64,000 nt of DNA from Nitrospira sp. (GTDB lineage: Bacteria > Nitrospirota > Nitrospiria > Nitrospirales > Nitrospiraceae), in contig JANDJL010000003.1 in the NCBI GenBank assembly GCA_024330965.1, positions 95,579 through 159,578 on the forward strand, written 5' to 3'. The notes under the pieces were generated by a model. It had not been told where the DNA came from and did no database searches. It worked only from the letters and a program-made list of their open reading frames with translations. A program made the position numbers and the translations under genes. Of the stretch, positions 23,044 to 64,000 are shown piece by piece (within the stretch, counting starts at the first letter, position 1; each line of letters opens with the position of its first letter).

Positions 23044-23239
23044 CTCCACGGTTGAGAGCCGTAATAAAAATAAAAAGACAGAAGTGACAAAGATCAAAGA
23101 TGACAAGCTGGCAATCTTTTCCCTCCGTGTCGTGTGGCGGTGAACCCATGGGGTACACAACAAAGGGTAAAGGGTAATTGACCAGTGACAAGTTGTGGTT
23201 GAGTGTGCAGGTGTTTCTGTCTCTACAAGGAGGAATCCC

Positions 23240-26200
23240 GTGAGGATTGAACGAAGATTCACCCATCGCGGTCGAAGTCCCTATGACGGGATCACATTCG
23301 TCAAACGGTCGTCCGAGATTCGCGAGCCGGACGGGTCAGTCGTATTCAAGCTGGACAACATCGACGTACCCGAGCAGTGGTCTCAATTGGCCGTTGATAT
23401 CTTGGCGCAGAAGTATTTTAGAAAAGCCGGTGTTCCCCAGCGAGATGAACAGGGACAGATCCTCAAGGGGCCGGACGGGAGGCCCCTGCTGGGGGGAGAA
23501 CGTGATGCCCGGCAGGTTTTCGAACGGATGGCTGGATGTTGGACGCACTGGGGAAAATCGTACGGCTATTTCACGACGCCGGAGGATGCCGACGCCTTCC
23601 ACGACGAGTTGTGTTACATGCTGGCGCGGCAGATGGCTGCTCCGAATTCCCCGCAGTGGTTCAACACGGGCCTCCATTATGCCTATGGATTGTCGGGGCC
23701 GGCGCAGGGGCACTATTACGTCGATCCTGCCACCCGCGAGGTCGTCAAGGCGACGAACGCGTTCGAACATCCCCAGCCCCATGCCTGTTTCATCCAGTCG
23801 ATCGAGGACGATCTGGTCAACGAAAACGGCATCATGGATCTCTGGGTTCGCGAAGCCAGATTATTCAAGTACGGCTCCGGGACCGGTACTAACTTCTCCA
23901 AACTGCGAGGCGAGGGGGAGGGATTGTCCGGGGGAGGAAAATCGTCCGGCTTAATGTCGTTTCTCAAGATCGGCGATCGGGCCGCCGGCGCGATTAAATC
24001 GGGTGGAACAACCAGGCGTGCCGCCAAGATGGTATGCCTGGATCTTGACCATCCTGATATAGAAGAGTTTATCGAGTGGAAAGTCATTGAAGAACAGAAG
24101 GTCGCGGCGATGGTGACCGGGTCGAAAATTTGCGCGCAACGCCTGAACGGTGTGCTGAAGGCCTGCCACATCGTCGATGGCCAAGGGGTCTTGAAGCTGG
24201 ATCTCGATCCCAAGACGAATTCAGTCTTGCGAGAAGCCCTGGCGCTGGCGCGAAGAGACATGGTGCCGGAGGCCTATATCCAGCGAATGTTTTCCTATGC
24301 GCAGCAGGGGTTCACCCACTTCGTCTTTCACGAATACGACACCAACTGGGACGGCAAGGCCTATCAAACCGTGTCGGGGCAGAATTCAAACAATAGCGTG
24401 AGAATACCTAACGAGTTTTTCGCCGCGCTCGACGCCGACGGCGAGTGGCATCTCACACGCCGGATCGACGGCAAGGTTTGCAAAACCCTCAAGGCCCGCG
24501 ACTTGTGGGATCGGATCGCCTGGGCCGCATGGACATGTGCGGATCCCGGAACCCAGTACGACACGACGATCAACGAATGGCATACGTGCCCGGAAGATGG
24601 CCGCATCAATGCGTCGAATCCCTGTTCGGAATACATGTTTTTGGACGATACGGCCTGTAATTTGGCATCGCTCAACCTGGCGGCCTTTTATACCGCCGAC
24701 GGTCGATTTGAGTTGGAAAATTTCCGGCACGCCGTGCGACTGTGGACGATCGTGTTGGAAATCAGCGTCTTGATGGCGTCGTTTCCCAGCCGGTCTATTG
24801 CCGAGAAGAGCTATCGGTTCAGAACGCTCGGTTTGGGGTATGCCAATTTGGGGACGGTGTTGATGCGTCAAGGGATTCCCTATGATTCGCCCAAAGCCCG
24901 CGCGATCTGCGGCGCCCTCAGCGCCATCATGACCGGTGAGGCCTACAGTACGTCGGCGGAAATGGCCGCCGAATTGGGACCGTTCCCGGGCTACGCGAAA
25001 AACCGTGATCACATGCTGCGGGTGATCCGCAATCACCGCCGGGCGGCCTACAATGCGCCGCGCGAGGAATATGAGGGACTGACAATCAAACCAACGGGGA
25101 TTCAGCCGGAGCATTGCCCGCCCGATCTGCTGATTGCCGCCAGGCGGGCGTGGGATCGAGCGCTTGAGCTGGGGACAGCTTACGGATATCGCAATGCGCA
25201 GGTGACGGTCATCGCGCCGACTGGGACGATCGGGTTGGTGATGGATTGCGATACCACCGGAATCGAGCCGGACTTTGCCCTGGTGAAGTTTAAGAAATTG
25301 GCCGGCGGCGGATACTTTAAGATCATCAATCAGAGCTTGCCCCTCGCATTGTCGACACTGGGATACACGGACGGACAAGTCCAGGACATCGTGCGCTACT
25401 GTGTCGGCGCGCAAACCCTCAAACAGGCGCCGTTCATCAACCATGAATCGTTGCGGTCGAAGGGGTTCGACGATGAGGCACTGGCCCGTCTTGAAAGCAG
25501 CCTGGCCCAGGCGTTTGATATCCAGTTCGCCTTTAACAAGTTCGTGTTGGGAGAGTCCTTTTGCACGGAGAAATTGGGTTTCAGCGAAAGCCAATTGAAC
25601 ACCCCCTCTTTCAACATGCTCAAATCGCTCGGCTTCACGCAGGAGGAAATCGCCGCCGCCAATGATTTTTGCTGCGGTACGATGACGGTGGAGGGGGCGC
25701 CGCATTTGAAGGCCGAGCACCTTCCGGTCTTCGACTGCGCCAATCGCTGTGGTCGAATCGGGCGCCGCGCTATCGCCGTTGACGCCCACATCCGTATGAT
25801 GGCTGCGGCCCAGCCGTTCATCAGCGGTGCAATCAGCAAAACGATCAATATGCCGCATGACGCCACGGTCGAAGACGTCAAGAACGCCTATCGGCTGGCC
25901 TGGGAAAGCATGGTGAAGGCGGTGGCGATTTATCGAGACGGGTCGAAACTGAGCCAGCCGTTAAGCGCCTCGACCGATAGTGGAAAAACGGCAGAGGCGG
26001 CTGGTGCAGTGGAGGCGGTCGCGGAGAAGGTGACCGAGCGCGTGCTGGTCCGATACCTTGCCAAGCGGCGGCCGTTGCCGAGCCGGCGGAACGGCTATAC
26101 GCAGAAGGCGATCATCGGCGGTCACAAATTGTATCTCCGAACCGGCGAATATGAGGATGGGACCATCGGAGAAATCTTCCTCGATATGCACAAGGAAGGG

Positions 26201-26767
26201 GCGGCGTTCCGAAGCCTCATGAATTGTTTTGCCATCGCCATTTCTCTCGGCTTACAACACGGCGTACCGCTCGAAGAATTTGTCGAAGCGTTCGTCTTTA
26301 CCAGGTTCGAGCCCAACGGACCGGTCAAGTTGAACGACCGTATCAAAATGTCGACCTCGATCATCGACTACATTTTCCGAGAGTTGGCGATCACGTATTT
26401 GGACCGCTATGACCTGGCGCAGGTCAAGGAAGAAGACCTGCGGATGGATTCGATGAAAAAGGACGATGGAGATCCCGAGTGCGTGGAAGAGGAGGCGGAC
26501 CTCAAAGCCTTGTCCACATCCGCGGTCATCACCGAGCACCTGCCTGTTCGTCGGAACGGCGGAAAAAGCAGGAATCGCGAAAATGGGCGTAATGTCGCCA
26601 GACAGGTTGAGATCAGACGGGAGACCCTCACCTTGACGGAGGTGCAGAGCGCCAAGGTGAAGGGATATGAGGGAGACCCCTGCCCCGAGTGCAAACAGTT
26701 CACGATGGTGCGCAACGGCACGTGCCTGAAATGCGTCAGTTGCGGCGCCACGAGTGGGTGCTCATGA
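23240..26767 (+). CDS. nrdJ: adenosylcobalamin-dependent ribonucleotide reductase (class II, long form)
   Basis: GTG at 23240 follows an AAGGAGG SD (23227-23233). [11 protein letters not shown]...FVKRSSEI is the class II N-terminal domain. Also contains [21 protein letters not shown], the [10 protein letters not shown] region and a C-terminal Cys ribbon CPECKQ...CLKCVSCG. Confidence 0.95.
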
Positions 26768-51987: not shown

Positions 51988-52493
51988 ACGTTCCCTCGGT
52001 TTCTCCCGGCATTGAGCCCTGCAGGCCCGTCGTCCAGGTGAGTCACGTATCGGCTCCGGTGCGGTATCGTCTTGCTGATACCTTCGAAAAGTGAGGTCGC
52101 TTGACTCTCTCACACATGAGGTCTATGGTATTTCCGTGGGAGGAGTGAACGCCCCGAGGGAATGTGGATCATGAGGGGGTCGAGCGCCGAGGATGGTGTG
52201 CAGGCCCGGCTTGGACCGGGAAGCCTAAAGTCCTCCCAAGATCTCCGTCGTACCTAATCGTCCTCGGTTAGGTGCGTGCTCCTCCCACCCAAAAATGCCG
52301 GCCAGCGTTCCCGCGCCGAAGCTGCTCGCCTCTTTTGTTCTCCGCGAATCGAGACATATTCCTGCCTTGAAGAAAAAGAGGAAGGACGTTTGTCTCGACC
52401 GAGCGCTGGTCCTCCAGCAAGGGGTGCGGTTGTCTTGAGTCGGCCAAGGATTTTGTGATACCAACGGGCCCGCATCATATCTGGTGAGGTTGA

Positions 52494-54605
52494 ATGACGA
52501 CGAAAAGAGAATCTGTAGCGGTGACTCGGCTGATCCCTGCCGTTGCTCAGTCAGCTCCCGATCCTGCCGCTCGAAGGAAACCCTCATCGAATCCGGTCGA
52601 ACGGGTGACCGCCGTCGAAATGGGCGCGCGTCAGCGGGAAATTTCCGTGTCGGAATTCTTTACAAAGAACCGGCACCTGCTCGGTTTCGACAATCCGCGC
52701 AAGGCCTTGTTGACCTGCGTGAAGGAAGCAGTCGATAACGCACTCGATGCCTGTGAGGAGGCCGGCATCCTCCCCGATGTGACGGTGCGGTTGGAAGTGG
52801 TGCCGATTGATGGAGTCACTGCGCCGGCCACTCAGGCGACACGGTTTCGTCTGACGGTGACGGACAACGGGCCTGGTATCGTGCGCCAACAGATTCCTCG
52901 CATTTTCGCCAAGCTATTGTACGGCTCGAAATTTCATCGGTTGCGCATGAGCCGAGGGCAGCAAGGCATCGGGATTTCCGCCGCCGGCATGTATGCTCAA
53001 TTGACGACCGGGAAGCCGGTGAGGATCATTTCGCGTACCGGCCCTCGTGCCGCCGCCCATTTTTTCGAAGTGCAAATCGACACTAAGAAGAACGAGCCGT
53101 TGGTGCATGAAAGCAAGCAGATCGATTGGGATCAGCCGCAGGGGACTCAGGTCACGTTGGAAGTCGAAGGCCGCTATCAAAAGGGCCGGGCGTCGGTGGA
53201 TGAGTGGCTGGAGCAAACGTCCATCGCCAATCCCCATGCCAGACTGATTTATCACACGCCGGAAGGCGAGACGAAGGAATACGTCAGAGCCTATCACGAA
53301 ATGCCGCCTTCGCCGCGGGAGATCAAGCCGCATCCCTATGGCATCGAGTTCGGCATGTTCCTGAAGATGTTGCAGGACACGAAGAGCCATACGGTGGCGG
53401 GCTTTTTGGCGAGTGACTTTTGCCGAATCTCGCCGTCGTTGGCCGACGAGATGTGCAAAGCGGCCAAGGTCACGCCAGCAATGAAGCCGCGGGACTTGAA
53501 AGGCTCCGCCGCGGAAACGTTGTATCGGACGATTCAACACACGAAGATTATGGCCCCGCCGACTAACTGCCTGTCACCGATCGGCGAAAAGGCAATCCTC
53601 TCCGGCCTCTACAAACAGATCAAGGGCGAGTTCTATACGGCGGTGACGAGACCGCCGGCCGTCTATCGCGGCAATCCGTTTGTGATCGAAGCAGGGCTCG
53701 CCTATGGCCGGCGGTCCGACGAACAGAACAAGCCAGAGAAACCGATCGCTCCAAAAGCCGAAGGAGAACATGAGGAAGACGACGTAGAGCTGGCGCGGGT
53801 GATCCGCTACGCCAATCGCGTGCCGCTCCTCTATCAACAATCGGCCTGCGCGACCTTCAAGGCTGTGCTCGGTCTTTCTTGGAAGAACTACGGAGTGGCG
53901 CAGTCGCGCGGCGCCTTGCCGGCCGGTCCGATGGTGATCTTCGTCCACATGGCGTCGGTGTGGGTGCCGTTTACCAGCGAATCGAAAGAAGCGATCGCCG
54001 ACTATGACGAAATCCACAAGGAAATCACCTTGGCGTTACGAGAGTGTGGGAGGCGGTTGGGACTGTACCTGCGCCGCCGCGAACGGGCCGCAAGCGAGTA
54101 TCGACGCCGGAACATTTTCGAATTGTACATTGAGGAAGTCGTCGAGGCGTGCAATCGCCTGAAGGGCGGCAAAGTGCCGAAAGAGAAACTCAAGAAACAG
54201 TTGCAGCACATCGCTCTGTCTCGCACCGGCGGCACCAAGACCGACGAGGTGCTGGGGAAAACCGGAGGAGGGCCGGAAGGGCTGCCCCATTCCATTATCG
54301 TTACGGAATCTGGCGTGGAAAGCGAAGTCAGCGTCGCTTCCGAGTCGGGACCGGAGCAAGCGAGTGAGGCATCTGAAACAAGGGCGGGGCATCGTGACGA
54401 AGCCGCCGGTGGCGGGTCGCCGTCTGAATCCAAGTCCGGCGGGTCGAAACACCTCAACAGAGGACAGTCGCCCGGAAAGCCAACTGCGAAGGGAAGCCGG
54501 ACGGGGCTCTTTGGCGGCTGGACGGACGGGAAGGACAAGGCCGATCAAGCGTTGTCCTGGTCGGCTAAACGGGCGGCTCATGCGCGCCGAGGGACGACAG
54601 CATGA
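52494..54605 (+). CDS. top6B: DNA topoisomerase VI subunit B (GHKL ATPase + transducer) with a long low-complexity C-terminal tail
   Basis: GGTGAGG SD. Contains SVSEFFTKNRHLLGFDNP, the N-box EAVDNALDACEE, G1 TVTDNGPGI, G2 SRGQQGIGISAA and the transducer region RYANRVPLLY. The tail is 54225-54602. Confidence 0.92.
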   Translation: MTTKRESVAVTRLIPAVAQSAPDPAARRKPSSNPVERVTAVEMGARQREISVSEFFTKNRHLLGFDNPRKALLTCVKEAVDNALDACEEAGILPDVTVRLEVVPIDGVTAPATQATRFRLTVTDNGPGIVRQQIPRIFAKLLYGSKFHRLRMSRGQQGIGISAAGMYAQLTTGKPVRIISRTGPRAAAHFFEVQIDTKKNEPLVHESKQIDWDQPQGTQVTLEVEGRYQKGRASVDEWLEQTSIANPHARLIYHTPEGETKEYVRAYHEMPPSPREIKPHPYGIEFGMFLKMLQDTKSHTVAGFLASDFCRISPSLADEMCKAAKVTPAMKPRDLKGSAAETLYRTIQHTKIMAPPTNCLSPIGEKAILSGLYKQIKGEFYTAVTRPPAVYRGNPFVIEAGLAYGRRSDEQNKPEKPIAPKAEGEHEEDDVELARVIRYANRVPLLYQQSACATFKAVLGLSWKNYGVAQSRGALPAGPMVIFVHMASVWVPFTSESKEAIADYDEIHKEITLALRECGRRLGLYLRRRERAASEYRRRNIFELYIEEVVEACNRLKGGKVPKEKLKKQLQHIALSRTGGTKTDEVLGKTGGGPEGLPHSIIVTESGVESEVSVASESGPEQASEASETRAGHRDEAAGGGSPSESKSGGSKHLNRGQSPGKPTAKGSRTGLFGGWTDGKDKADQALSWSAKRAAHARRGTTA

Positions 54606-55705
54606 CCACGAAGGCGAAGAAACCCACCCCCGTCGAAAAGAAACTGGTCGGCCTGGCCGACCTCGTGATCCAAGCGGCCGAGCGGTCGAAAGATCCGACG
54701 CTCCAGATTCCGATCCGCGCCCTTTCCAATGTCTCGTTCAATGAGCGGAAGGGGATGATCGAGATGGGCGAGAAGAAACAGGCCCGCTCGTTCTTCAACG
54801 TCGGGATGGCCAAGAAGTTCATGCAGACGATGTTGGTGGCGGACGCCCTGGCGGAGCTACAGCGGGCCGAGCTGACGACGTCGCTTCGCGAAATTTACTA
54901 TCGAACCAAACATACGATCAAAGACTCTCATGAGAACACGTTCGACACACAGGACGAGTCCGATCCGATCATCGAAGATTTGGAGGTTTCCCTCGCAGCG
55001 CTTCGGGAAGAACTCCATGTCCGCGCGGAGAATGCCGGGAGCATTGTCGGACCGGTCGTCTTCGGTGACGACGGTGACCGCGTGGACTGCTCGAAACTGG
55101 GCAAGGGCGGCTATTCCGTTCCTTCGATCGTGGAGCCGGAGTATCTGGAGATCCGTCGATGCACGGCGGATTTCGTGCTGTTGGTCGAGAAGGGAACACA
55201 GTGGAACCGGCTGTCGGAGGACAAGTTCTGGCGACGATACAACTGCATCCTGCTCACTGGCAATGGCCAACCGCCGCGCGGCGTGCGCCGATTGGCGCGA
55301 CGGCTGCATGAGGAATGGAGACTTCCGATTTACGTGTTGGTGGACAACGATCCGTGGGGTTACTACATTTATTCCGTGGTTAAACAGGGGTCGATCAATT
55401 TGGCGTTCGAGAGTCAGCGGATGGCGATTCCCAAGGCGAAGTTTATCGGTCTTTCAAGCGCTGACCCTGAACGGTATGGCCTGCCGCGCAACGTTGGTAT
55501 CAAGCTCAACGATAAGGACATGGCACGGGCGAAGGAACTGATGAATTATCAATGGTTCAAAAAGCCGGCCTGGCAGGCGGAGATTAAACGGATGTTGACA
55601 AGCGGATTGAAGTACGAACTTGATGCCTTGGCGAACAAAGACTTCCAGTACCTGACCAAACAGTACCTGCCGCGAAAATTGCGAGAACGAGATTGGCTTG
55701 ATTAA
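54602..55705 (+). CDS. top6A: DNA topoisomerase VI subunit A (Spo11-type)
   Basis: ATGA overlap with top6B. Contains the catalytic-Tyr context SLREIYYRTK and Toprim motifs VLLVEKG and VDNDPWGYYI. Confidence 0.92.
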   Translation: MTTKAKKPTPVEKKLVGLADLVIQAAERSKDPTLQIPIRALSNVSFNERKGMIEMGEKKQARSFFNVGMAKKFMQTMLVADALAELQRAELTTSLREIYYRTKHTIKDSHENTFDTQDESDPIIEDLEVSLAALREELHVRAENAGSIVGPVVFGDDGDRVDCSKLGKGGYSVPSIVEPEYLEIRRCTADFVLLVEKGTQWNRLSEDKFWRRYNCILLTGNGQPPRGVRRLARRLHEEWRLPIYVLVDNDPWGYYIYSVVKQGSINLAFESQRMAIPKAKFIGLSSADPERYGLPRNVGIKLNDKDMARAKELMNYQWFKKPAWQAEIKRMLTSGLKYELDALANKDFQYLTKQYLPRKLRERDWLD

Positions 55706-55741
55706 CCCTCGCTCCTGTCACCTCGACGCGCCCTATCGGCT

Positions 55742-57301
55742 ATGAGAATCCTGCCGGCTTGGAATTCGCCGCTTCGCGATTGGCAGCGCCGTGCGTGTGA
55801 GACTGTTCGAACTCATCAGAAGACCGACTTTTTGGCCACGGCGACGCCCGCTGCGGGGAAAACACGGTTCGCGCTGCGCGTGGCCCACGAGTTTTTGAAA
55901 ACCGGACGAGCGCTTCGCTTGCTGGTGGTGTGCCCCACCAGCCACCTGCGCAGACAATGGGCTGATGCCGCGGGGGCAGTCGGGTTGCAGCTCGATCCGG
56001 CCCTGACCAACGAGCGGGCATGGGAGGCTTCGGACTATCACGGCGCTGCGGTGACCTATCAACACGTGTGCTCTTCGCCGGAAACGGTGCGGCGCGGCTG
56101 TCTTGCCAAACCGACGTTAGTGATTTTGGATGAGCTGCACCATGCCGGGGATGGGAAACAGTGGGGCAGGGCGCTCAAAACGGCGCTTGAGCCGGCGGTG
56201 TTTCGCCTGATCTTGTCCGGTACGCCTTTTCGCTCCGACAACGATGCCATTCCCTTTGTCCGGTACGTGCAAGGCGAAAGCCAGCCGGACTTTTCCTATG
56301 GATACAGTGAGGCACTGTGCGACGGCGTCTGCCGGCCGATCCTGTTTCCCAGTTACGAGGGCGAATTGACCTGGGTGTCAAAAGGCCGCGAGCATACGGC
56401 TACGTTCGAAGACGGTTTGCCGATCGACCGTCGGCGGGAACGGTTGAAAACAGCGTTGCTGCAAGAGTCATGGCTCGGTTCGGTGATCGCGGATGCGCAT
56501 GAGCAACTTGTTCGCGTGCGGCGGGAAGAGCAGCCCGACGCCGGAGGGCTCATTGTCACCATGGATCAAGACCATGCTCGCTGGGTGACTGATCTGGTCG
56601 GCCGTGTCACGGGAGGCAGGGCCGCGGTGGCCGTCTCGGACGACCCGCAAGCATCCGGCGTTATCGACACGTTTGCTGGCGATAGGAGGCAACAGTGGTT
56701 GGTGGCCGTCAACATGGTCAGTGAGGGAGTGGACATTCCTCGTTTGCGCGTCGGGGTTTATGGCACCAACGTCTTGACAGAGATGTATTTCAGGCAGGTG
56801 GTCGGACGTTTCGTGCGCATGCAGGACCATGTGCCGAAGCCACAGCGGGCGTGGCTGTATCTGCCTAAAGATCCGATCTTGGCCCATTATGCCTGGCGGA
56901 TTAAAGAGGAGCGCGATCACGTGCTGGAAGACATCCCATTGGCGGGACAACGGGATCTCTTTGGCCGTGTCACCGTTTCGACGAATGAATACCGGCCGTT
57001 GATGGCCGTGGCTCGCATGGATAAGGTAATTGGAGAAGAAGACGTTGAGCGATCCAGCCGCTCGGCGATTGCGGTGGCGCAGCCGGTCGCGCTGCACGAA
57101 CTCAAGCAAGAGCTGCGGGATCTCCACCGGCTGCTTGTTGCTGCGGTCGCGAGACTGAGTGGCGTGGATCACCGGCGCCTCAACGCAGAGTTGATCGCAC
57201 GGACCGGGAGCCGTATCGATCAGGCGACCGTCGAGCAGCTCCGCAAACGGATTCGACTCCTCGAACAGTGGCGAGACCATGGATATGATGGGAAGCGATA
57301 A
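55742..57301 (+). CDS. superfamily-2 helicase (ResIII/DEAH + Helicase_C)
   Basis: Contains LRDWQ (Q-like), Walker A TPAAGKT, motif II ILDELHH, motif III SGTPFRSD, motif V SEGVDIP and motif VI QVVGRFVR. The C-terminal ~120 aa could not be assigned. Confidence 0.85.
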   Translation: MRILPAWNSPLRDWQRRACETVRTHQKTDFLATATPAAGKTRFALRVAHEFLKTGRALRLLVVCPTSHLRRQWADAAGAVGLQLDPALTNERAWEASDYHGAAVTYQHVCSSPETVRRGCLAKPTLVILDELHHAGDGKQWGRALKTALEPAVFRLILSGTPFRSDNDAIPFVRYVQGESQPDFSYGYSEALCDGVCRPILFPSYEGELTWVSKGREHTATFEDGLPIDRRRERLKTALLQESWLGSVIADAHEQLVRVRREEQPDAGGLIVTMDQDHARWVTDLVGRVTGGRAAVAVSDDPQASGVIDTFAGDRRQQWLVAVNMVSEGVDIPRLRVGVYGTNVLTEMYFRQVVGRFVRMQDHVPKPQRAWLYLPKDPILAHYAWRIKEERDHVLEDIPLAGQRDLFGRVTVSTNEYRPLMAVARMDKVIGEEDVERSSRSAIAVAQPVALHELKQELRDLHRLLVAAVARLSGVDHRRLNAELIARTGSRIDQATVEQLRKRIRLLEQWRDHGYDGKR

Positions 57302-57407: not shown

Positions 57408-57433
57408 GACGAGGGCGGAACACCGCCCTCGTC
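57408..57433. terminator. perfect 11-bp stem / 4-nt loop hairpin between convergent genes
   Basis: GACGAGGGCGG-AACA-CCGCCCTCGTC. There is no clear U-tract on either strand, so its terminator function is tentative. Confidence 0.5.
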
Positions 57434-59749: not shown

Positions 59750-60016
59750 ATGCCCAACGTCACCTTGCTTGTCTCATCCAGTTGCGGTGCCTGCCCATCT
59801 GCCAAGAGTTTGTGGAAACAGTTGCGCACGAAATACAGTTTTTCTTACCGTGAAGTCGATATTGCGACCAAAGATGGGCAGGAGTTAGCGGAACGGCACG
59901 CGGTTCGGGCGGTTCCTGCCACCATCCTCGATGGCCGATTGACGTTCATCGGCGTGCCGAGCCGAGAAAGTGCGGAAAAGGCTCTTCAGTTGAAACTGAA
60001 GCAACGGGAAGGGTGA
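59750..60016 (+). CDS. thioredoxin-fold (glutaredoxin-like) protein
   Basis: 88-aa ORF with a CGAC redox motif near the N-terminus and a cis-Pro context AVPATI. Confidence 0.75.
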   Translation: MPNVTLLVSSSCGACPSAKSLWKQLRTKYSFSYREVDIATKDGQELAERHAVRAVPATILDGRLTFIGVPSRESAEKALQLKLKQREG

Positions 60017-60021
60017 TCCCC

Positions 60022-60177
60022 ATGGACGAGGACGACATTGAACTACCGGTGCTTCCGCACCTTGATAAGGGACCACCCCCTGATTGTCCGATCTGTGGTG
60101 ATCCCATGTCTTTTGTTGATGGCGACTGGGCCTGCGTCGACTGTAACGGTGAACTGCTGGGACCTGAGACCGGCTGA
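60022..60177 (+). CDS. small zinc-ribbon protein (51 aa, below the ORF-track cutoff)
   Basis: Manual translation gives MDEDDIELPVLPHLDKGPPPDCPICGDPMSFVDGDWACVDCNGELLGPETG, with CPxC...CxxC. It starts 5 nt after the previous stop. Confidence 0.45.
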   Translation: MDEDDIELPVLPHLDKGPPPDCPICGDPMSFVDGDWACVDCNGELLGPETG

Positions 60178-60276
60178 CCATTCGCCGTTTGCCGACCGTC
60201 GAACAGACAAGCGGACAAGTTGAGCTTGTCGTGCCGCCAGGTGCCTCATGCCCCTTGACGATCTGCGACACTTCCC

Positions 60277-63200
60277 ATGCTGAAGGTCGTCACCGGTCGA
60301 TTCCATCCCACCCTTGAATCATCGCTGGTTGATCGGGTCAGGCGGCTCAAGGCCGAAGATCCCTTGGTCCCGCTCGCGATCATTGCTCCCTCCAATCACC
60401 TGGCCGACCGTCTTCGGACCCTCTTCGCCGTCGAACATCGGCTGTCGCTGCTCAATCTGCACGTCTTGACCTTTCATCAGCTTGCCCTCCGCCTGGCCGA
60501 TGAATGGAAGGCCGAGCATGTGTTGCCACGCGTCGTTGACGAACTGTTTTTTGAACAGGTGATTCGTTTTCTGGTTTGCCACAGGCTCTCGCGGCATGAG
60601 CCGTTTCGGCGGCTCGGGCGCGCGGCTGGGACCTGGGGCGCGCTCTGGGCGACGATCCGCGATTTGAAAGACGCACTCGTCGATCCCGACCATATGATGC
60701 GGGGATTGTGCGAAGGCTGCTTCGAAGAGGAGGACCGTGAATGGCTGGAAGCGCTCGCGGCGCTCTTCGCGGCCGTCAGGGAGTCCGGTCGAACGTTGGG
60801 GGTCGGAACGCAAAACGATCTCGCCGAGCACCTCGTTTCTTATGTGCCGGCATCATCGTTTCTCCGGCTGTTCAAAGAAGTGTTCTATTATGGATTCTAT
60901 GATCTGACGCAGGTCCAACTCTCGTTCTTCGAGGCTGTGAGCCGCGCGAAGGACACGACCCTGTTTTTTCCGTTGGAAGGTGATCCGGCCTATGACTTTG
61001 CACGGCGCTTCTTCGATCGCTGCATCAGGCCGTTAGCGGCGACGATTGACTCCGGCTCGGCATCCGACGGGGATTCCTCCGCTCACATCAATCATGCGGT
61101 GTGCCTTGCTATCCGGAACGTGATCGGTCCGCAAGAAGAATTGGCTGCGGCTTGCCGGACGATCCTTGAGCTGGTCGAAACCAACGGTTATCGGTTCGAC
61201 GAGATCGGCGTCGTGGCCCGCACCCTCGATCCCTATGGTCCGCATCTTCAGTCGGTCTTTGATCGACATCGAGTGCCGTTTCGCACGACGGCGTCTCGGT
61301 CGTTGATAGAAGAGCCGGTGTGCAAAGTCATCGTGCAGCTTCTCTCGTTGCCGTTGAACGAGTGGTATGCGCCGTCGGTGCTCGATGTCGTGACGTCCCC
61401 CCTTTATGCAAGCGATCTATTCGATGGCCGCTCGCCAGCTTATAGACCGGAGCAATGGAAACTCGCGGTGCAGGCCCTATGCATCACCCGCGGAACGGAG
61501 GAATGGAAGCGGCTGGATCTGATCAATCGAGAGGGTATGGTACTCGGCGGCGAAGAAAGCCCGCTCGATTCTTTGGCGATTGTGCCGGAAACGTTGGTGT
61601 TGCTCCGACAGGTCGTTGCCGAATTGGTGGATGACTGTTCTACGTTGCCGTCCAAGGGAACCATCGGTCAGTTAGTGGAGGCCTGTCGAACTTTGGTTGA
61701 TCGGCGCATTCGTTGGTTGAATGTGGAAGCGAACCCGAATGATCCGAACGTTGCTCGTCCGACCATGATAGGGACCGCACTCGATCGAATCTGGATCACC
61801 CTTCTGGAATTGGAGCCGCTCAATGAAGAGCTGACGTGGGCCGAGTTCGTCGATGTGCTGACGCGCGCCATCGAAAAGACCAGGGTGCCGGTCGTTTCCT
61901 CTTGTGGCGCTGGAGTGATGGTGTCTGATGTCATGGCCGCTCGTGGGGTGCCGTTCACGGCATTGTTCCTTCTGGGATTGAACGATCAAATCTTCCCCCG
62001 CTCCATTCGAGAGGACGGATTTCTGCGGGACCGTCATCGTCGTGTGCTGGATGCCACGTTGGGATTCAAGATCGATGAAAAACTGGCGGCCTATGAGGAA
62101 GAGCGGTTGCTGTTTCACCTGTCATGCCGGTCGGTAAGGCAAAGGCTTTATCTCTCGTATCAACGGGCTGATGAGTCGGGCCGCCTGTTGGCGGCATCGC
62201 CGTATCTTGACGAGGTCGCCCGGCTGTTTGGGGTTGAAGCGTGCGAGGTGGATGTGGTGCCGCGCCGTTTGACGGATCGATTGCGCAGGCGTCCGGCGGA
62301 ACACACCTTTATCGCGCCGGCCGAGCTCATTCAATGGTTGGCTCTGGGCGGCAAGGACCCGACCGACTTGATCAAGGCGCTGGGTCGTGATGGAGAAATG
62401 TTTCGGCACGCGGCTGAGGCCCTTGGCCGGATTGAGGTGGATGGACACGATCTGAGCGAGTTTGACGGACTGACCGGCAATCTTGAACTCCATTGGCGAC
62501 GCCTGCTCGATCAAGGAATGGCTCCGACTCCGCTCGAACGGTATGCCCGCTGTCCCTTCCAGTATTTCGCGGCCGATGTGCTGCGGCTGGAAACGGTCCG
62601 TGTGGTGATCGAACCGGGACCGGACGCCGCTCTCGTCGGGAGCCTCTGCCACGCCGCGCTGCGGTACTGTTACGAACGACTCGTGCAAGCCGGATGGCCT
62701 GTTGAACGGGTCAAGGAAGATGAACTGAAACAGGTGATTGTTTCGTCCGTCGAACAGGCTGCAGAGATGCTGGAGAACCGGCAAGGTGTGGGACCCTATC
62801 TCCTCTGGGAAATGGCGAAGGAGTCGGTCTATCAGCTTGTGCGCGAGGCGGTGGTCTCGGATGAAGAGGAACAAGCCGAGCAACCGTACAGTCCCATTGC
62901 GTTCGAGGTGGAGGGAGAAGGGGTCGTCCTTGGCATACTCGATGGGGAGCCACTGAAGGTACGAGGCCGGATCGATCGATTGGACCGGCATCGGGTATCA
63001 GGTGACCTGCGCATTATCGATTACAAGGTGAAGCTCGGTTCGAGCATGAAACCGGAGGACCGGAATCTCGTGCAATCGGCGGTCCGTGGTTTTCGGCTGC
63101 AACCGCCGCTCTACAGTTGTTTCTCTTTCCCGGAACAACCCGCGCCGAGCCTCGTGCAGTTCCTTTTTCTTGCCCCGCAGTGGTCTCCCAGAATCAGCCG

Positions 63201-63444
63201 CTCGATCTTCGAGACGTCTGTGTGGCCGTCCGATGTCGGCCGTCTGATTCGGAAGACGGTGAGCGAACTGGTTCGAGGGATCCGGGATGGAAGGTTTTTT
63301 ATTCTGCCGGACGGTTATTGCGACGGCTGTCTCTACCGGACTGTTTGCCGGCGGGAACATGGTCCCACGTGGTGGAGGGCCTATCATGCGGATGAATCGA
63401 AATCGCTGAAGGCGATACGGAAACAGAAAACGAACCATGAGTGA
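60277..63444 (+). CDS. addB: AddB-type helicase-nuclease subunit (PD-(D/E)XK nuclease with Fe-S cysteines)
   Basis: 1055-aa ORF with a degenerate N-terminal helicase-like domain. The C-terminal nuclease has GRIDRLD...RIIDYKV, and the Cys set is RCPFQYF...CDGCLYRTVC. Confidence 0.85.
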   Translation: MLKVVTGRFHPTLESSLVDRVRRLKAEDPLVPLAIIAPSNHLADRLRTLFAVEHRLSLLNLHVLTFHQLALRLADEWKAEHVLPRVVDELFFEQVIRFLVCHRLSRHEPFRRLGRAAGTWGALWATIRDLKDALVDPDHMMRGLCEGCFEEEDREWLEALAALFAAVRESGRTLGVGTQNDLAEHLVSYVPASSFLRLFKEVFYYGFYDLTQVQLSFFEAVSRAKDTTLFFPLEGDPAYDFARRFFDRCIRPLAATIDSGSASDGDSSAHINHAVCLAIRNVIGPQEELAAACRTILELVETNGYRFDEIGVVARTLDPYGPHLQSVFDRHRVPFRTTASRSLIEEPVCKVIVQLLSLPLNEWYAPSVLDVVTSPLYASDLFDGRSPAYRPEQWKLAVQALCITRGTEEWKRLDLINREGMVLGGEESPLDSLAIVPETLVLLRQVVAELVDDCSTLPSKGTIGQLVEACRTLVDRRIRWLNVEANPNDPNVARPTMIGTALDRIWITLLELEPLNEELTWAEFVDVLTRAIEKTRVPVVSSCGAGVMVSDVMAARGVPFTALFLLGLNDQIFPRSIREDGFLRDRHRRVLDATLGFKIDEKLAAYEEERLLFHLSCRSVRQRLYLSYQRADESGRLLAASPYLDEVARLFGVEACEVDVVPRRLTDRLRRRPAEHTFIAPAELIQWLALGGKDPTDLIKALGRDGEMFRHAAEALGRIEVDGHDLSEFDGLTGNLELHWRRLLDQGMAPTPLERYARCPFQYFAADVLRLETVRVVIEPGPDAALVGSLCHAALRYCYERLVQAGWPVERVKEDELKQVIVSSVEQAAEMLENRQGVGPYLLWEMAKESVYQLVREAVVSDEEEQAEQPYSPIAFEVEGEGVVLGILDGEPLKVRGRIDRLDRHRVSGDLRIIDYKVKLGSSMKPEDRNLVQSAVRGFRLQPPLYSCFSFPEQPAPSLVQFLFLAPQWSPRISRSIFETSVWPSDVGRLIRKTVSELVRGIRDGRFFILPDGYCDGCLYRTVCRREHGPTWWRAYHADESKSLKAIRKQKTNHE

Positions 63445-64000
63445 CCGTCCCCCGCTACCGGATCGCGCCGCCCGCGAGGCGGCGGAAACGACCTTTGATC
63501 GGAACGTCGTTGTCATCGCCGGAGCGGGAACCGGCAAGACGACCTTGCTTGTGAATCGGCTGGTGCATCTGCTTGTCAAGCAACCGGAGCCGATTCCGAT
63601 CATGAACATCGTGGCCTTGACGTTCACCAACAAGGCCGCGACCGAGATGAAAGTACGGTTGCGCGAGCGCTTGACGGTTCTTGCCCAGCCACATCGGGCC
63701 TCGGTGCGATCGAGCGACGGAGGATCCCTGTCATACGGAGAGATTGAAGCCCGCTACGGTCTCGCTCCTGAGGCCGTCGCCACGTTGGCTCGGGCGGCCC
63801 TTGTCGATCTGGAAAAAGCGCAAATCGGCACGCTCCACAGTTTCGCGGCTCATCTGTTGCGACTCCATGCGCTGGAGAGCGGAGTCGATCCCGAGTTTCA
63901 AGAAGACGACGGCTTGCGATTCGACGAACACTTCACCGCTTCATGGGATCTCTGGTTGGATCGGGAGCTGAGTCCTTCTGGATCTCATCATGGGCTGTGG
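63437..64000 (+). CDS. addA: UvrD/AddA-type helicase, N-terminal part (runs off the window)
   Basis: Manual translation from the ATG at 63437 (8-nt overlap with addB) gives MSDRPPLPD...VVIAGAGTGKTTLLVNR...ALTFTNKAATEM...IGTLHSFA, i.e. UvrD motifs I, Ia and II region. Confidence 0.85.
   Translation, partial: MSDRPPLPDRAAREAAETTFDRNVVVIAGAGTGKTTLLVNRLVHLLVKQPEPIPIMNIVALTFTNKAATEMKVRLRERLTVLAQPHRASVRSSDGGSLSYGEIEARYGLAPEAVATLARAALVDLEKAQIGTLHSFAAHLLRLHALESGVDPEFQEDDGLRFDEHFTASWDLWLDRELSPSGSHHGLW

What the first reader, a model, noticed from the sequence alone, without database searches (positions are those of the whole stretch)
52494..57301. Bacterial type IIB topoisomerase (Topo VI B+A) operon with an adjacent SF2 helicase - possible helicase-topoisomerase module
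Seen:
- top6B has intact GHKL motifs: EAVDNALDA, DNGPGI and GQQGIGISAA.
- top6B overlaps top6A by ATGA (54602-54605).
- top6A has the catalytic Tyr context REIYYR and Toprim motifs VEKG and DNDPWG.
- 36 nt later, on the same strand, comes a 519-aa ResIII/DEAH helicase with all core motifs (AAGKT, DELH, SGTP, QVVGRFVR) and an unassigned C-terminal ~120 aa.
- A perfect 11-bp hairpin follows the helicase gene.

Established: Topo VI is the hallmark type IIB enzyme of Archaea and plants and occurs only sporadically in Bacteria, which normally rely on gyrase and Topo IV.

Inference: this looks like a horizontally acquired, apparently functional Topo VI. Its tight linkage to a helicase suggests a coupled DNA-unwinding/strand-passage machine, comparable in logic to reverse gyrase or RecQ-Topo III pairs. 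It could serve replication or segregation, or act against or for mobile DNA. I am not aware of a described Topo VI-helicase system.
Basis: partly seen in the sequence, partly recalled or inferred. Interest (0 to 1): 0.72.

Follow-up and report, generated by a model that had tools for sequence, protein, structure and literature searches.

The report
Nitrospira Topo VI operon, unrelated helicase neighbour
This is the already documented, intact archaeal-type topoisomerase VI of Nitrospira, and comparison with other genomes shows the helicase gene beside it is a lineage-specific neighbour rather than part of a conserved helicase-topoisomerase machine.

Summary
top6B (52494-54605) and top6A (54602-55705) overlap by ATGA. 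Both score above NCBIfam equivalog cut-offs and keep every catalytic motif. A 519-aa SF2 helicase (55742-57301) follows 36 nt later, and the 11-bp hairpin is at 57408-57433.

The window is core chromosome of a Nitrospira closest to Ca. N. inopinata, whose complete genome has the same arrangement. Topo VI in Nitrospiraceae is published (Allen & Maxwell 2024, PMC11302465). That paper lists N. moscoviensis as having gyrase but no Topo IV, so the enzyme is most likely the cell's decatenase.

The helicase-topoisomerase module idea is not supported:
- The helicase belongs to a large uncharacterised SF2 family (1,346 50%-identity clusters at E<1e-30), mostly in Actinomycetota.
- None of 66 non-Nitrospirota loci has Topo VI within 10 kb.
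- Within Nitrospiraceae the adjacency is limited to one subclade, with gaps of 34-236 nt.
- It is interrupted by an aldo-keto reductase gene in N. moscoviensis.
- It is absent in a complete genome nested in that subclade, in the sister clade and in the nearest outgroup.
- Other Nitrospiraceae have top6BA without the helicase.

Co-transcription in this genome is plausible but untested. Low interest; already known.

The parts
52494..54605 (+). top6B, DNA topoisomerase VI subunit B (703 aa). Contains the GHKL ATPase, the H2TH region and the transducer, followed by a ~120-aa low-complexity G/S/A/E-rich C-terminal tail (residues ~583-703).
   Evidence: NF003218: 663 bits against a cut-off of 274. 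TIGR01052: 520 bits against a cut-off of 381. Pfam Topo-VIb_trans 2.7e-56 and HATPase_c 1.7e-10. It aligns over residues 38-539 to M. mazei Top6B 2q2e_B (486 bits). The E/N of EAVDNALDA, DNGPGI, GQQGIGIS and the transducer Lys (SESKEAIAD) are all conserved.
54602..55705 (+). top6A, DNA topoisomerase VI subunit A (367 aa). Contains the 5Y-CAP/TP6A_N domain with the catalytic Tyr, an all-beta domain and the Toprim domain. It overlaps top6B by ATGA.
   Evidence: NF003333: 581 bits against a cut-off of 465. Pfam TOP6A-Spo11_Toprim 8e-61, TP6A_N 5.8e-17 and Topo_VI_alpha 2.3e-8. It aligns to S. shibatae 2zbk_A (274 bits) and M. mazei 2q2e_A (180 bits). REIYYR matches RDLYYR/RELYY, VEKG matches VEKD/IETG, and DNDPWG matches DADPYG/DGDPWS.
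55742..57301 (+). SF2 (RadD/XPB-like, ResIII-type) helicase, 519 aa. Two RecA-like lobes (residues ~10-395) are followed by a disordered linker, a beta-hairpin and a family-specific three-helix bundle (~451-513). It is a neighbour of the Topo VI operon, not a demonstrated part of it.
   Evidence: ResIII 4e-12, DEAD 2e-8. Motifs I, II, III and VI are present. AF2 model pLDDT is 85.7. The best fold matches are E. coli RadD at E 3e-14 and TM about 0.48, then RapA, UvsW, XPB, HsdR and Snf2. The family has 1,346 50%-identity clusters at E<1e-30. Linkage to Topo VI is limited to one Nitrospira subclade.
57408..57433 (.). Perfect 11-bp inverted repeat with a 4-nt loop, lying between the convergent helicase (+) and phytase-like (-) genes. 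It is a possible factor-independent or bidirectional transcription stop, or an mRNA-stabilising hairpin.
   Evidence: The sequence was read directly. No T-run follows it on either strand, and it was not called by the terminator scan.

Best explanation
Topo VI:
- top6B-top6A is the chromosomal, vertically inherited Topo VI of Nitrospiraceae.
- By homology it should form an A2B2 type IIB topoisomerase. It would capture a T-segment through ATP-driven dimerisation of the GHKL domains of Top6B and pass it through a double-strand break. The Top6A Tyr (in REIYYR) makes that break together with the Mg2+-binding Toprim E/DxD.
- Nitrospira is reported to have gyrase but no ParC/ParE. The enzyme therefore most likely acts as the cell's main decatenase and relaxase of positive supercoils, in place of Topo IV.

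Helicase:
- The gene downstream encodes a member of a large, uncharacterised RadD/XPB-like SF2 family. This family is found mostly in Actinomycetota and often carries an N-terminal HNH nuclease in other lineages.
- It is probably a DNA repair or replication-restart translocase that works independently of Topo VI.
- It came to lie downstream of top6A through a rearrangement in one Nitrospira subclade. In this genome it is probably read through from the top6BA promoter.

What is shown and what is inferred:
- Shown: gene identities, intact motifs, and the phylogenetic distribution of the linkage.
- Inferred: the decatenase role (from the literature and homology), the helicase's repair role (from fold similarity and HNH fusions), and co-transcription (from the 36-nt gap).
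For: Identity and integrity:
- Topo VI identities are above the curated cut-offs and the catalytic residues are intact.

Chromosomal, conserved context:
- The window is core chromosome: Lon, class II RNR, LigA, TrpE, LolCD-like ABC transporter, LysS, PrfB, Lnt. GC is uniform at 0.58-0.60.
- Top6A is 90-98% identical across the Nitrospira loci where the helicase is only 73-87%; the 120 best Top6A database hits are 76-100% identical. This indicates strong purifying selection on Topo VI.
- Allen & Maxwell 2024 list Nitrospiraceae (N. moscoviensis) among 17 Topo VI-bearing bacterial families. All have gyrase, and Topo IV is lacking outside Terrabacteria and Pseudomonadota. They propose that Topo VI compensates for missing Topo IV.
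- The same gene order is present in the complete Ca. N. inopinata genome.

Helicase family distribution:
- 4,150 50%-identity clusters at E<=1e-3.
- 595 relatives found in GTDB species genomes. The best 80 include 66 non-Nitrospirota loci, none with top6A or top6B within 10 kb.
- 72 of the 150 nearest representatives carry an HNH domain.
- The contexts elsewhere are ordinary chromosomal ones.

Linkage is lineage-specific and labile:
- N. moscoviensis has an aldo-keto reductase gene between top6A and the helicase.
- In AP038806.1 the helicase lies next to glycogen/trehalose genes.
- The sister clade (L003, L012-L014, L017) and the outgroup L092 are unlinked.
- L084, L085 and L087-L089 have top6BA without the helicase.
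Against: - In 10 of the 12 helicase loci of one Nitrospira subclade (counting this window) the helicase directly follows top6A on the same strand. Gaps are as short as 34-58 nt in seven of them. No terminator-like site lies in the junction here. Co-expression, and hence some functional association in that subclade, cannot be excluded.
- I could not run a Topo VI-centred survey of other bacterial phyla (Planctomycetota, Myxococcota, Bdellovibrionota, Alphaproteobacteria). A recurrent association with a different or more distant helicase there is untested.
- I did not show within one assembly that a genome with an unlinked helicase also carries Topo VI. That is inferred from both genes being found across Nitrospiraceae.
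- The absence of parC/parE rests on the paper's N. moscoviensis result, not on this genome.
Confidence: 0.85

Rival explanations
1. Lineage-specific functional module. In the N. inopinata / N. moscoviensis-type subclade the SF2 helicase has been recruited as an accessory factor of Topo VI. It would be co-transcribed with top6BA and act with it at replication forks or termination, for example by exposing or translocating DNA for strand passage. This would be analogous in logic to RecQ-Topo III or reverse gyrase.
For: - The helicase is on the same strand as top6A, with a 36-nt gap and no terminator-like site between them.
- The adjacency is retained in 10 of the 12 helicase loci of that subclade, counting this window, including Ca. 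N. inopinata.
- Allen & Maxwell speculate that bacterial Topo VI might use alternative accessory proteins.
Against: - The linkage is not conserved outside the subclade and is broken twice within it.
- The helicase family thrives in phyla where the sampled loci have no Topo VI nearby.
- Topo VI occurs in sister Nitrospiraceae without the helicase as a neighbour.
- Junction gaps reach 165-236 nt in three loci, which leaves room for an independent promoter.
- The helicase evolves much faster than Top6A (73-87% against 90-98% identity), with no sign of coupled constraint.
- The literature searches found no report of such a system.
Confidence: 0.08
2. Mobile-element or defence cargo. The top6BA-helicase cluster would be a recently acquired island acting for or against mobile DNA, with the helicase related to restriction or Dnd/Pbe-type defence motors.
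For: - The helicase gives partial hits to PADLOC PbeA (3.8e-19), type I REase models, TIGR04095 dnd_restrict_1 (1.3e-15, N-terminal half only) and PHROG 16 DNA helicase (6e-27).
- Many family members carry an HNH nuclease.
Against: - All those hits cover only the generic SF2 core and are far below the family cut-offs (57 bits against a cut-off of 600 for TIGR04095).
- No integrase, transposase, tRNA-flanked island or GC shift occurs near the locus.
- Top6A and Top6B give no meaningful PADLOC hits.
- The locus is syntenic and highly conserved across Nitrospira.
- The family's contexts in other phyla are housekeeping.
- Plasmid-borne Top6A relatives were found only on haloarchaeal megaplasmids.
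Confidence: 0.02
3. Degenerate or repurposed Topo VI. The A/B pair would no longer be a topoisomerase and would instead act as a Spo11-like break-maker or MksG-like nuclease, with the helicase processing the ends.
For: - Toprim/Topo VI-A-like folds have been repurposed elsewhere. An example is MksG, which appeared in the literature hits.
- Top6B has an unusual ~120-aa low-complexity tail.
Against: - Both subunits are full length and score above equivalog cut-offs.
- All ATPase, transducer-Lys, catalytic Tyr and Toprim residues are conserved, and the alignments to solved Topo VI are continuous.
- The translationally coupled B-A arrangement is typical of Topo VI.
- The subunits are extremely conserved across Nitrospira.
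Confidence: 0.03

Closest known systems
Bacterial/archaeal DNA topoisomerase VI (Top6A/Top6B). Solved structures: S. shibatae 2zbk, M. mazei 2q2e. Bacterial distribution described by Allen & Maxwell 2024 (PMC11302465).
   Same: - Two-gene B-then-A operon with translational coupling.
- The full domain set: GHKL, H2TH, transducer, 5Y-CAP and Toprim.
- All catalytic residues are present.
- Nitrospiraceae is explicitly listed as a Topo VI-bearing family that lacks Topo IV.
   Different: - Top6B carries a ~120-aa low-complexity C-terminal tail. This tail did not align to the C-terminal part of the M. mazei chain (the alignment ends at residue 539).
- Otherwise nothing distinguishes it from published bacterial Topo VI.
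E. coli RadD (YejH) and XPB/Rad25-type SF2 DNA repair ATPases
   Same: - RadD gives the best fold matches to the helicase model (6jde, 8h5z, 7r7j; E 3e-14 to 1e-11; TM about 0.48).
- Archaeal XPBII gives the best PDB sequence hit (8e-6).
- The ResIII-type RecA1 lobe and motifs I, II, III and VI are shared.
   Different: - Only ~18% identity, limited to the motor core.
- The protein starts directly at the motor, so there is no XPB damage-recognition N-domain.
- There is no CxxC zinc-finger pattern like RadD's.
- The C-terminal three-helix bundle has no structural match.
Helicase-topoisomerase partnerships (reverse gyrase fusion; RecQ-Topo III; Sgs1-Top3-Rmi1)
   Same: An SF2 motor is encoded next to a topoisomerase and is possibly co-transcribed with it in this genome.
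   Different: - Those systems pair a helicase with a type IA topoisomerase. They are defined by fusion, or by conserved co-occurrence and physical interaction.
- Here the topoisomerase is type IIB, the genes are separate, and the linkage is neither conserved nor required by either family.
Mycobacterial SftH (SF2 + DUF1998) and Dnd/Pbe restriction helicases
   Same: All are SF2 DNA motors, and SftH is likewise common in Actinomycetota.
   Different: - There is no DUF1998 or tetracysteine module.
- Hits to PbeA and TIGR04095 cover the motor core only and are far below the cut-offs.

Membership tests
Topo VI subunit A (Top6A/Spo11 superfamily, topoisomerase branch) | 5Y-CAP (TP6A_N) domain with the catalytic tyrosine | tested here: met
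   TP6A_N 5.8e-17. REIYYR at residue 96 aligns with RDLYYR of S. shibatae and RELYY of M. mazei.
Topo VI subunit A (Top6A/Spo11 superfamily, topoisomerase branch) | Toprim domain with the conserved Glu and the DxD metal-binding motif | tested here: met
   TOP6A-Spo11_Toprim 8e-61 over the full profile. VEKG (195) and DNDPWG (248) align with VEKD/IETG and DADPYG/DGDPWS.
Topo VI subunit A (Top6A/Spo11 superfamily, topoisomerase branch) | Score above a curated equivalog cut-off, and pairing with a bona fide Top6B (which distinguishes it from Spo11 and Mini-A) | tested here: met
   NF003333: 581 bits against a cut-off of 465, aligned end to end. top6B lies immediately upstream and overlaps by ATGA.
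Topo VI subunit B | GHKL/Bergerat ATPase fold with the catalytic Glu, the Mg-binding Asn, and the G1 and G2 boxes | tested here: met
   HATPase_c 1.7e-10. KEAVDNALDACEEAGILPD is identical to the M. mazei sequence. DNGPGI and GQQGIGISAA are conserved.
Topo VI subunit B | Transducer domain with the switch lysine that contacts the ATP gamma-phosphate | tested here: met
   Topo-VIb_trans 2.7e-56. FTSESKEAIAD aligns with FTSESKDAIAD (M. mazei) and YKSAGKESIAE (S. shibatae).
Topo VI subunit B | H2TH module between the GHKL and transducer domains | tested here: inconclusive
   The region (about residues 230-350) aligns continuously with M. mazei Top6B. No dedicated H2TH model was run, and the only Pfam hit there is a sub-threshold NFACT_N match.
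Topo VI holoenzyme | A2B2 assembly and ATP-dependent duplex strand passage (decatenation and relaxation) | not testable with these tools
   This needs biochemistry. It is inferred from homology only.
Topo VIII / plasmid-borne type IIB enzymes | B and A modules fused in one polypeptide, encoded on free or integrated plasmids | tested here: not met
   The genes are separate and lie in core chromosomal context. Plasmid relatives of Top6A were found only in haloarchaea.
SF2 helicase superfamily | Two RecA-like lobes with motifs I (Walker A), II (DExH), III and VI | tested here: met
   ATPAAGKT, DELH, SGT and QVVGRFVR are present. ResIII 4e-12, with Helicase_C only weak at 0.005. The AF2 model shows two alpha/beta lobes and matches SF2 structures at E down to 3e-14.
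XPB/Rad25 | N-terminal damage-recognition domain plus the RED and thumb motifs | tested here: not met
   The motor starts at residue ~10, which leaves no room for an N-terminal domain. The sequence match to XPBII covers the core only (8e-6).
RadD | Zinc-finger insertion and a C-terminal SSB-interacting domain; clear orthology | tested here: not met
   18% identity and TM about 0.48 over the motor only. The sequence has no CxxC pairs. The C-terminal bundle has no fold match.
SftH | C-terminal DUF1998 tetracysteine domain | tested here: not met
   There is no DUF1998 hit in Pfam. The definition is taken from PMC3424565.
Helicase-topoisomerase functional module | Fusion, or evolutionarily conserved gene linkage or co-occurrence of the two partners | tested here: not met
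   0 of 66 non-Nitrospirota helicase loci have Topo VI within 10 kb. The linkage is confined to one Nitrospira subclade and is broken within it. Topo VI loci without the helicase exist.
Helicase-topoisomerase functional module | Physical interaction or mutual stimulation of the two activities | not testable with these tools

The most novel reading that the evidence does not exclude
In the Nitrospira subclade that includes Ca. N. inopinata and this genome, the RadD/XPB-like helicase may have been captured into the top6BA operon and become a lineage-specific accessory factor of bacterial Topo VI. It might load or target the decatenase at forks or termination regions. That would be the first helicase partner described for a type IIB topoisomerase.
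Probability: 0.07. Interest if true: 0.6.

Novelty: already known. Interest (0 to 1): 0.18.

Why it matters
As it stands the finding matters little. Topo VI in Nitrospiraceae is published, along with its likely role as a substitute for the missing Topo IV. The identical gene arrangement is already present in annotated complete genomes.

A real helicase partnership would be of interest to the topoisomerase field, which is still asking what bacterial Topo VI does and whether it uses accessory proteins. The comparative evidence argues against such a partnership.

Two modest points are useful:
- The helicase belongs to a very large, conserved and apparently unstudied SF2 family. It is a core chromosomal gene in many Actinomycetota and is often fused to an HNH nuclease. 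It may deserve characterisation in its own right.
- Public annotation names Top6A 'DNA topoisomerase IV subunit A'. This can corrupt automated Topo IV inventories.

Tried and rejected
- **Reaching non-Nitrospira homologues with the word-indexed protein search.** Both the helicase and Top6A queries returned 120 hits that are all Nitrospira-like (76-100% identical; every source name given is Nitrospira, Nitrospiraceae or Nitrospirota). The exhaustive representative search and the GTDB genome scan were needed instead.
- **Topo VI-centred survey of other bacterial phyla.** This was not achievable.
- **Conserved neighbours of the helicase outside Nitrospira.** Crude ORF clustering found nothing in more than 8 of 70 loci. 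A DUF3039-like small protein, a sigma-70 factor, NAPRT and nicotinamidase recur in some Actinomycetota. This gave no functional lead.
- **Defence-system membership.** PADLOC, TIGR04095 and PHROGs gave core-only, sub-threshold matches, so this was rejected.
- **SftH identity.** Rejected, because there is no DUF1998 domain.
- **C-terminal ~120 aa of the helicase.** Modelled alone, it gives a confident three-helix bundle (pLDDT 89.7) with no significant PDB fold match (best E about 1).
- **Rfam scan of the whole window.** No hits, so there is no riboswitch or leader in the 506-nt region upstream of top6B.
- **Promoter and terminator scans.** Only weak consensus matches were found, and the terminator count was no higher than in shuffled sequence.
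- **Literature searches for a Topo VI-helicase system.** Nothing relevant was found.
- **Same-assembly proof.** I could not show within a single assembly that a genome with an unlinked helicase also carries Topo VI.

Full report
**Observation.** The three ORFs exist exactly as described: top6B 52494-54605 (703 aa), top6A 54602-55705 (367 aa) and an SF2 helicase 55742-57301 (519 aa), all on the + strand. In Top6B these are EAVDNALDA (78), DNGPGI (124) and GQQGIGISAA (155). In Top6A they are REIYYR (96), VEKG (195) and DNDPWG (248). In the helicase they are ATPAAGKT (33-41), DELH (130), SGT (159) and QVVGRFVR (352). The ATGA overlap and the 36-nt gap are real. The perfect 11-bp hairpin lies at 57408-57433. 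It sits 107 nt after the helicase stop and only 47 nt from the end of a convergent phytase-like gene. No T-run follows it, and the terminator scan did not call it. It therefore cannot be assigned specifically to the helicase.

**Identity of the genes.** Top6B scores 663 bits on NF003218 (cut-off 274) and 2.7e-56 on the Topo VI-B transducer model. Top6A scores 581 bits on NF003333 (cut-off 465), with full-length Toprim (8e-61) and TP6A_N (5.8e-17) matches. Alignment to solved structures shows that the catalytic residues are conserved:
- the Tyr context, the Toprim Glu and the DxD motif in Top6A;
- the GHKL Glu/Asn, the G1/G2 boxes and the transducer switch Lys in Top6B.

Both subunits therefore look fully functional. 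The helicase has a ResIII-type RecA1 lobe (4e-12) and a weak Helicase_C match (0.005). Its AF2 model (pLDDT 85.7) matches E. coli RadD best (E 3e-14, TM about 0.48, 18% identity). The next matches are RapA, UvsW, XPB, HsdR and Snf2 motors. The best PDB sequence hit is archaeal XPBII at 8e-6. It is a generic RadD/XPB-like SF2 motor and not a member of any named family.

**Organism and context.** The helicase and Top6A are 100% identical to proteins of a Nitrospira sp. MAG. Top6A is 98% identical to that of Ca. Nitrospira inopinata. The window is ordinary core chromosome: Lon, class II ribonucleotide reductase, LigA, TrpE, a LolCD-like transporter, LysS, PrfB and Lnt. GC is uniform and there are no mobile-element genes near the locus. 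The complete Ca. N. inopinata genome (LN885086.1) has the same order: PrfB-Lnt-PilZ-Kelch-top6B-top6A-(37 nt)-helicase-phytase(-)-DUF3817-...-thioredoxin-AddB. The arrangement is thus already present in annotated public genomes.

**What is already known.** Allen & Maxwell 2024 (PMC11302465) surveyed Topo VI across life. They list Nitrospiraceae (N. moscoviensis) among 17 Topo VI-bearing bacterial families and infer at least two archaea-to-bacteria transfers. They report that all these bacteria have gyrase, and that those outside Terrabacteria and Pseudomonadota lack Topo IV. They argue that Topo VI compensates as a specialised decatenase. The paper does not mention a helicase. My literature searches found no described Topo VI-helicase system.

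**Testing the module hypothesis from the helicase side.** An exhaustive HMMER search shows the helicase belongs to a very large family. There are 4,150 50%-identity clusters at E<=1e-3 and 1,346 at E<1e-30, typically 40-50% identical over residues 1-400. A scan of GTDB species genomes found 595 relatives. The 80 best comprise 14 Nitrospirota loci and 66 from other phyla. Those 66 are mostly Actinomycetota (Solirubrobacterales, Acidimicrobiales, Streptosporangium, Gordonia, Rhodococcus, Micromonospora and others). They also include Anaerolineaceae, Eremiobacterota, Spirochaetaceae and others. tblastn with the window's Top6A and Top6B found them within 10 kb of the helicase only in Nitrospira loci whose helicase is at least 73% identical. 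None of the 66 non-Nitrospirota loci has them. Neither do the five Nitrospiraceae loci at 67-70% identity: L003, L012, L013, L014 and L017.

A helicase tree gives three results:
- The adjacency is confined to one Nitrospira subclade, with junction gaps of 34-236 nt.
- It is broken inside that subclade twice. N. moscoviensis has an aldo-keto reductase gene inserted between top6A and the helicase (1,339 nt apart). In the complete genome AP038806.1 the helicase lies among glycogen/trehalose genes.
- The nearest outgroup helicase (P0121, 56% identity) is also unlinked.

**Testing it from the Topo VI side.** Nitrospiraceae Top6A orthologues at ~90% identity (L084, L087-L089 and L085) sit in top6B-top6A operons. 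These are followed by unrelated genes: a 137-aa protein and PilZ in one case, and a 368-aa protein of unknown function in the other. No helicase is present. In L085 the downstream thioredoxin-AddB-AddA block is retained. Topo VI and the AddAB-like genes are therefore the older synteny, and the helicase is a later arrival in one lineage. Top6A is far more conserved across the compared Nitrospira loci (90-98%) than the helicase (73-87%). This fits an essential topoisomerase next to a less constrained neighbour, not a co-evolving pair.

**What the helicase probably is.** About half of the nearest family representatives (72 of 150) carry an N-terminal HNH endonuclease fused to the same motor. The Nitrospira and actinobacterial forms lack it. 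Contexts elsewhere are housekeeping. Examples are PBP1 and MgsA/RarA in an Anaerolineaceae MAG, and a DUF3039-like protein, a sigma-70 factor and NAD salvage genes in Actinomycetota. Matches to defence models (PbeA, TIGR04095, type I REase) cover only the motor core and are far below the cut-offs. The unassigned C-terminal region is family-wide. It comprises a disordered linker, a beta-hairpin and a three-helix bundle, which models confidently but has no structural match. The most reasonable inference is a chromosomal DNA repair or replication-restart translocase with an unknown precise role.

**Mechanism and verdict.**
- Shown: an intact, conserved, chromosomal Topo VI operon, and a neighbouring SF2 helicase whose linkage to it is lineage-specific and labile.
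- Inferred: Topo VI works as the A2B2 ATP-dependent strand-passage enzyme and substitutes for the missing Topo IV in decatenation and relaxation of positive supercoils. This rests on homology and PMC11302465.
- Inferred: the helicase is read through from the top6BA promoter in this genome (36-nt gap, no terminator) but acts independently.

A subclade-restricted functional recruitment cannot be excluded, and I put it at about 7%.

**Limits.**
- I could not survey Topo VI loci in other bacterial phyla.
- I could not demonstrate both genes unlinked within one assembly.
- I could not inventory parC/parE in this genome.
- I could not test co-transcription or complex formation.

Noticed in passing
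window 54240-54605 (Top6B residues ~583-703): Top6B ends in a ~120-aa low-complexity tail rich in G, S, A and E. The alignment to archaeal Top6B does not reach it (it ends at residue 539 against M. mazei). Top6B length varies among Nitrospira: 635 aa in N. inopinata, 681 in N. moscoviensis, and 697-717 in other lineages. The tail is therefore variable and probably disordered, and its role is unknown.
   Followed up: partly
window 52494-55705: The two subunits have discordant nearest solved relatives. Top6B is much closer to M. mazei (486 bits) than to S. shibatae (282 bits). Top6A is closer to S. shibatae (274 bits) than to M. mazei (180 bits). This could reflect different evolutionary histories or rates for A and B.
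   Followed up: no
window 54602-55705; database names: NCBI annotation, and the NCBIfam NF003333 description, name this Top6A 'DNA topoisomerase IV subunit A'. This is a misnomer. It could make automated surveys wrongly score Nitrospira as having Topo IV (ParC).
   Followed up: partly
window 59750-64000; L001 11128-17608; L085 12286-17107; L091 12469-13104: A thioredoxin-like gene followed by AddB-like (PD-(D/E)XK, 1055 aa) and AddA-like (UvrD + PD-(D/E)XK) genes lies a few kb downstream of top6BA. This holds in all Nitrospira lineages examined, including those that lack the helicase neighbour. This synteny is older than the helicase adjacency.
   Followed up: partly
helicase family: P0122, P0123, P0139, P0160, P0170, P0174, P0181; L018 9779-11707: About half (72 of 150) of the closest 50%-identity representatives of this helicase family carry an N-terminal HNH endonuclease domain. 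The family is large, conserved across Actinomycetota and other phyla, and appears uncharacterised. Its C-terminal three-helix bundle has no PDB fold match.
   Followed up: partly
L061 9500-9823, and L068, L069, L076, L077, L079, L081 (just upstream of the helicase): In seven actinobacterial loci a ~107-aa protein sits directly upstream of the helicase orthologue on the same strand. It carries a CGKVWVPGRDPEKFPVCPTC motif and looks like the actinobacterial signature protein DUF3039. I assigned that identity from memory and the protein was not scanned. A principal sigma factor, NAPRT and nicotinamidase genes recur nearby.
   Followed up: no
window 51988-52493: The intergenic region upstream of top6B is unusually long at 506 nt. 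A comparable ~550-nt gap occurs in N. inopinata. There is no Rfam hit and only a weak sigma-70-like match at 52101-52129. The true start of top6B may be downstream of 52494, because the first ~37 residues have no counterpart in archaeal Top6B.
   Followed up: partly
window 23195-26767: The class II (B12-dependent) ribonucleotide reductase ORF is 1190 aa long. The barrel domain matches in two separate stretches, and there is a C-terminal TSCPD domain. I did not check whether an insertion, such as an intein, splits the barrel.
   Followed up: no
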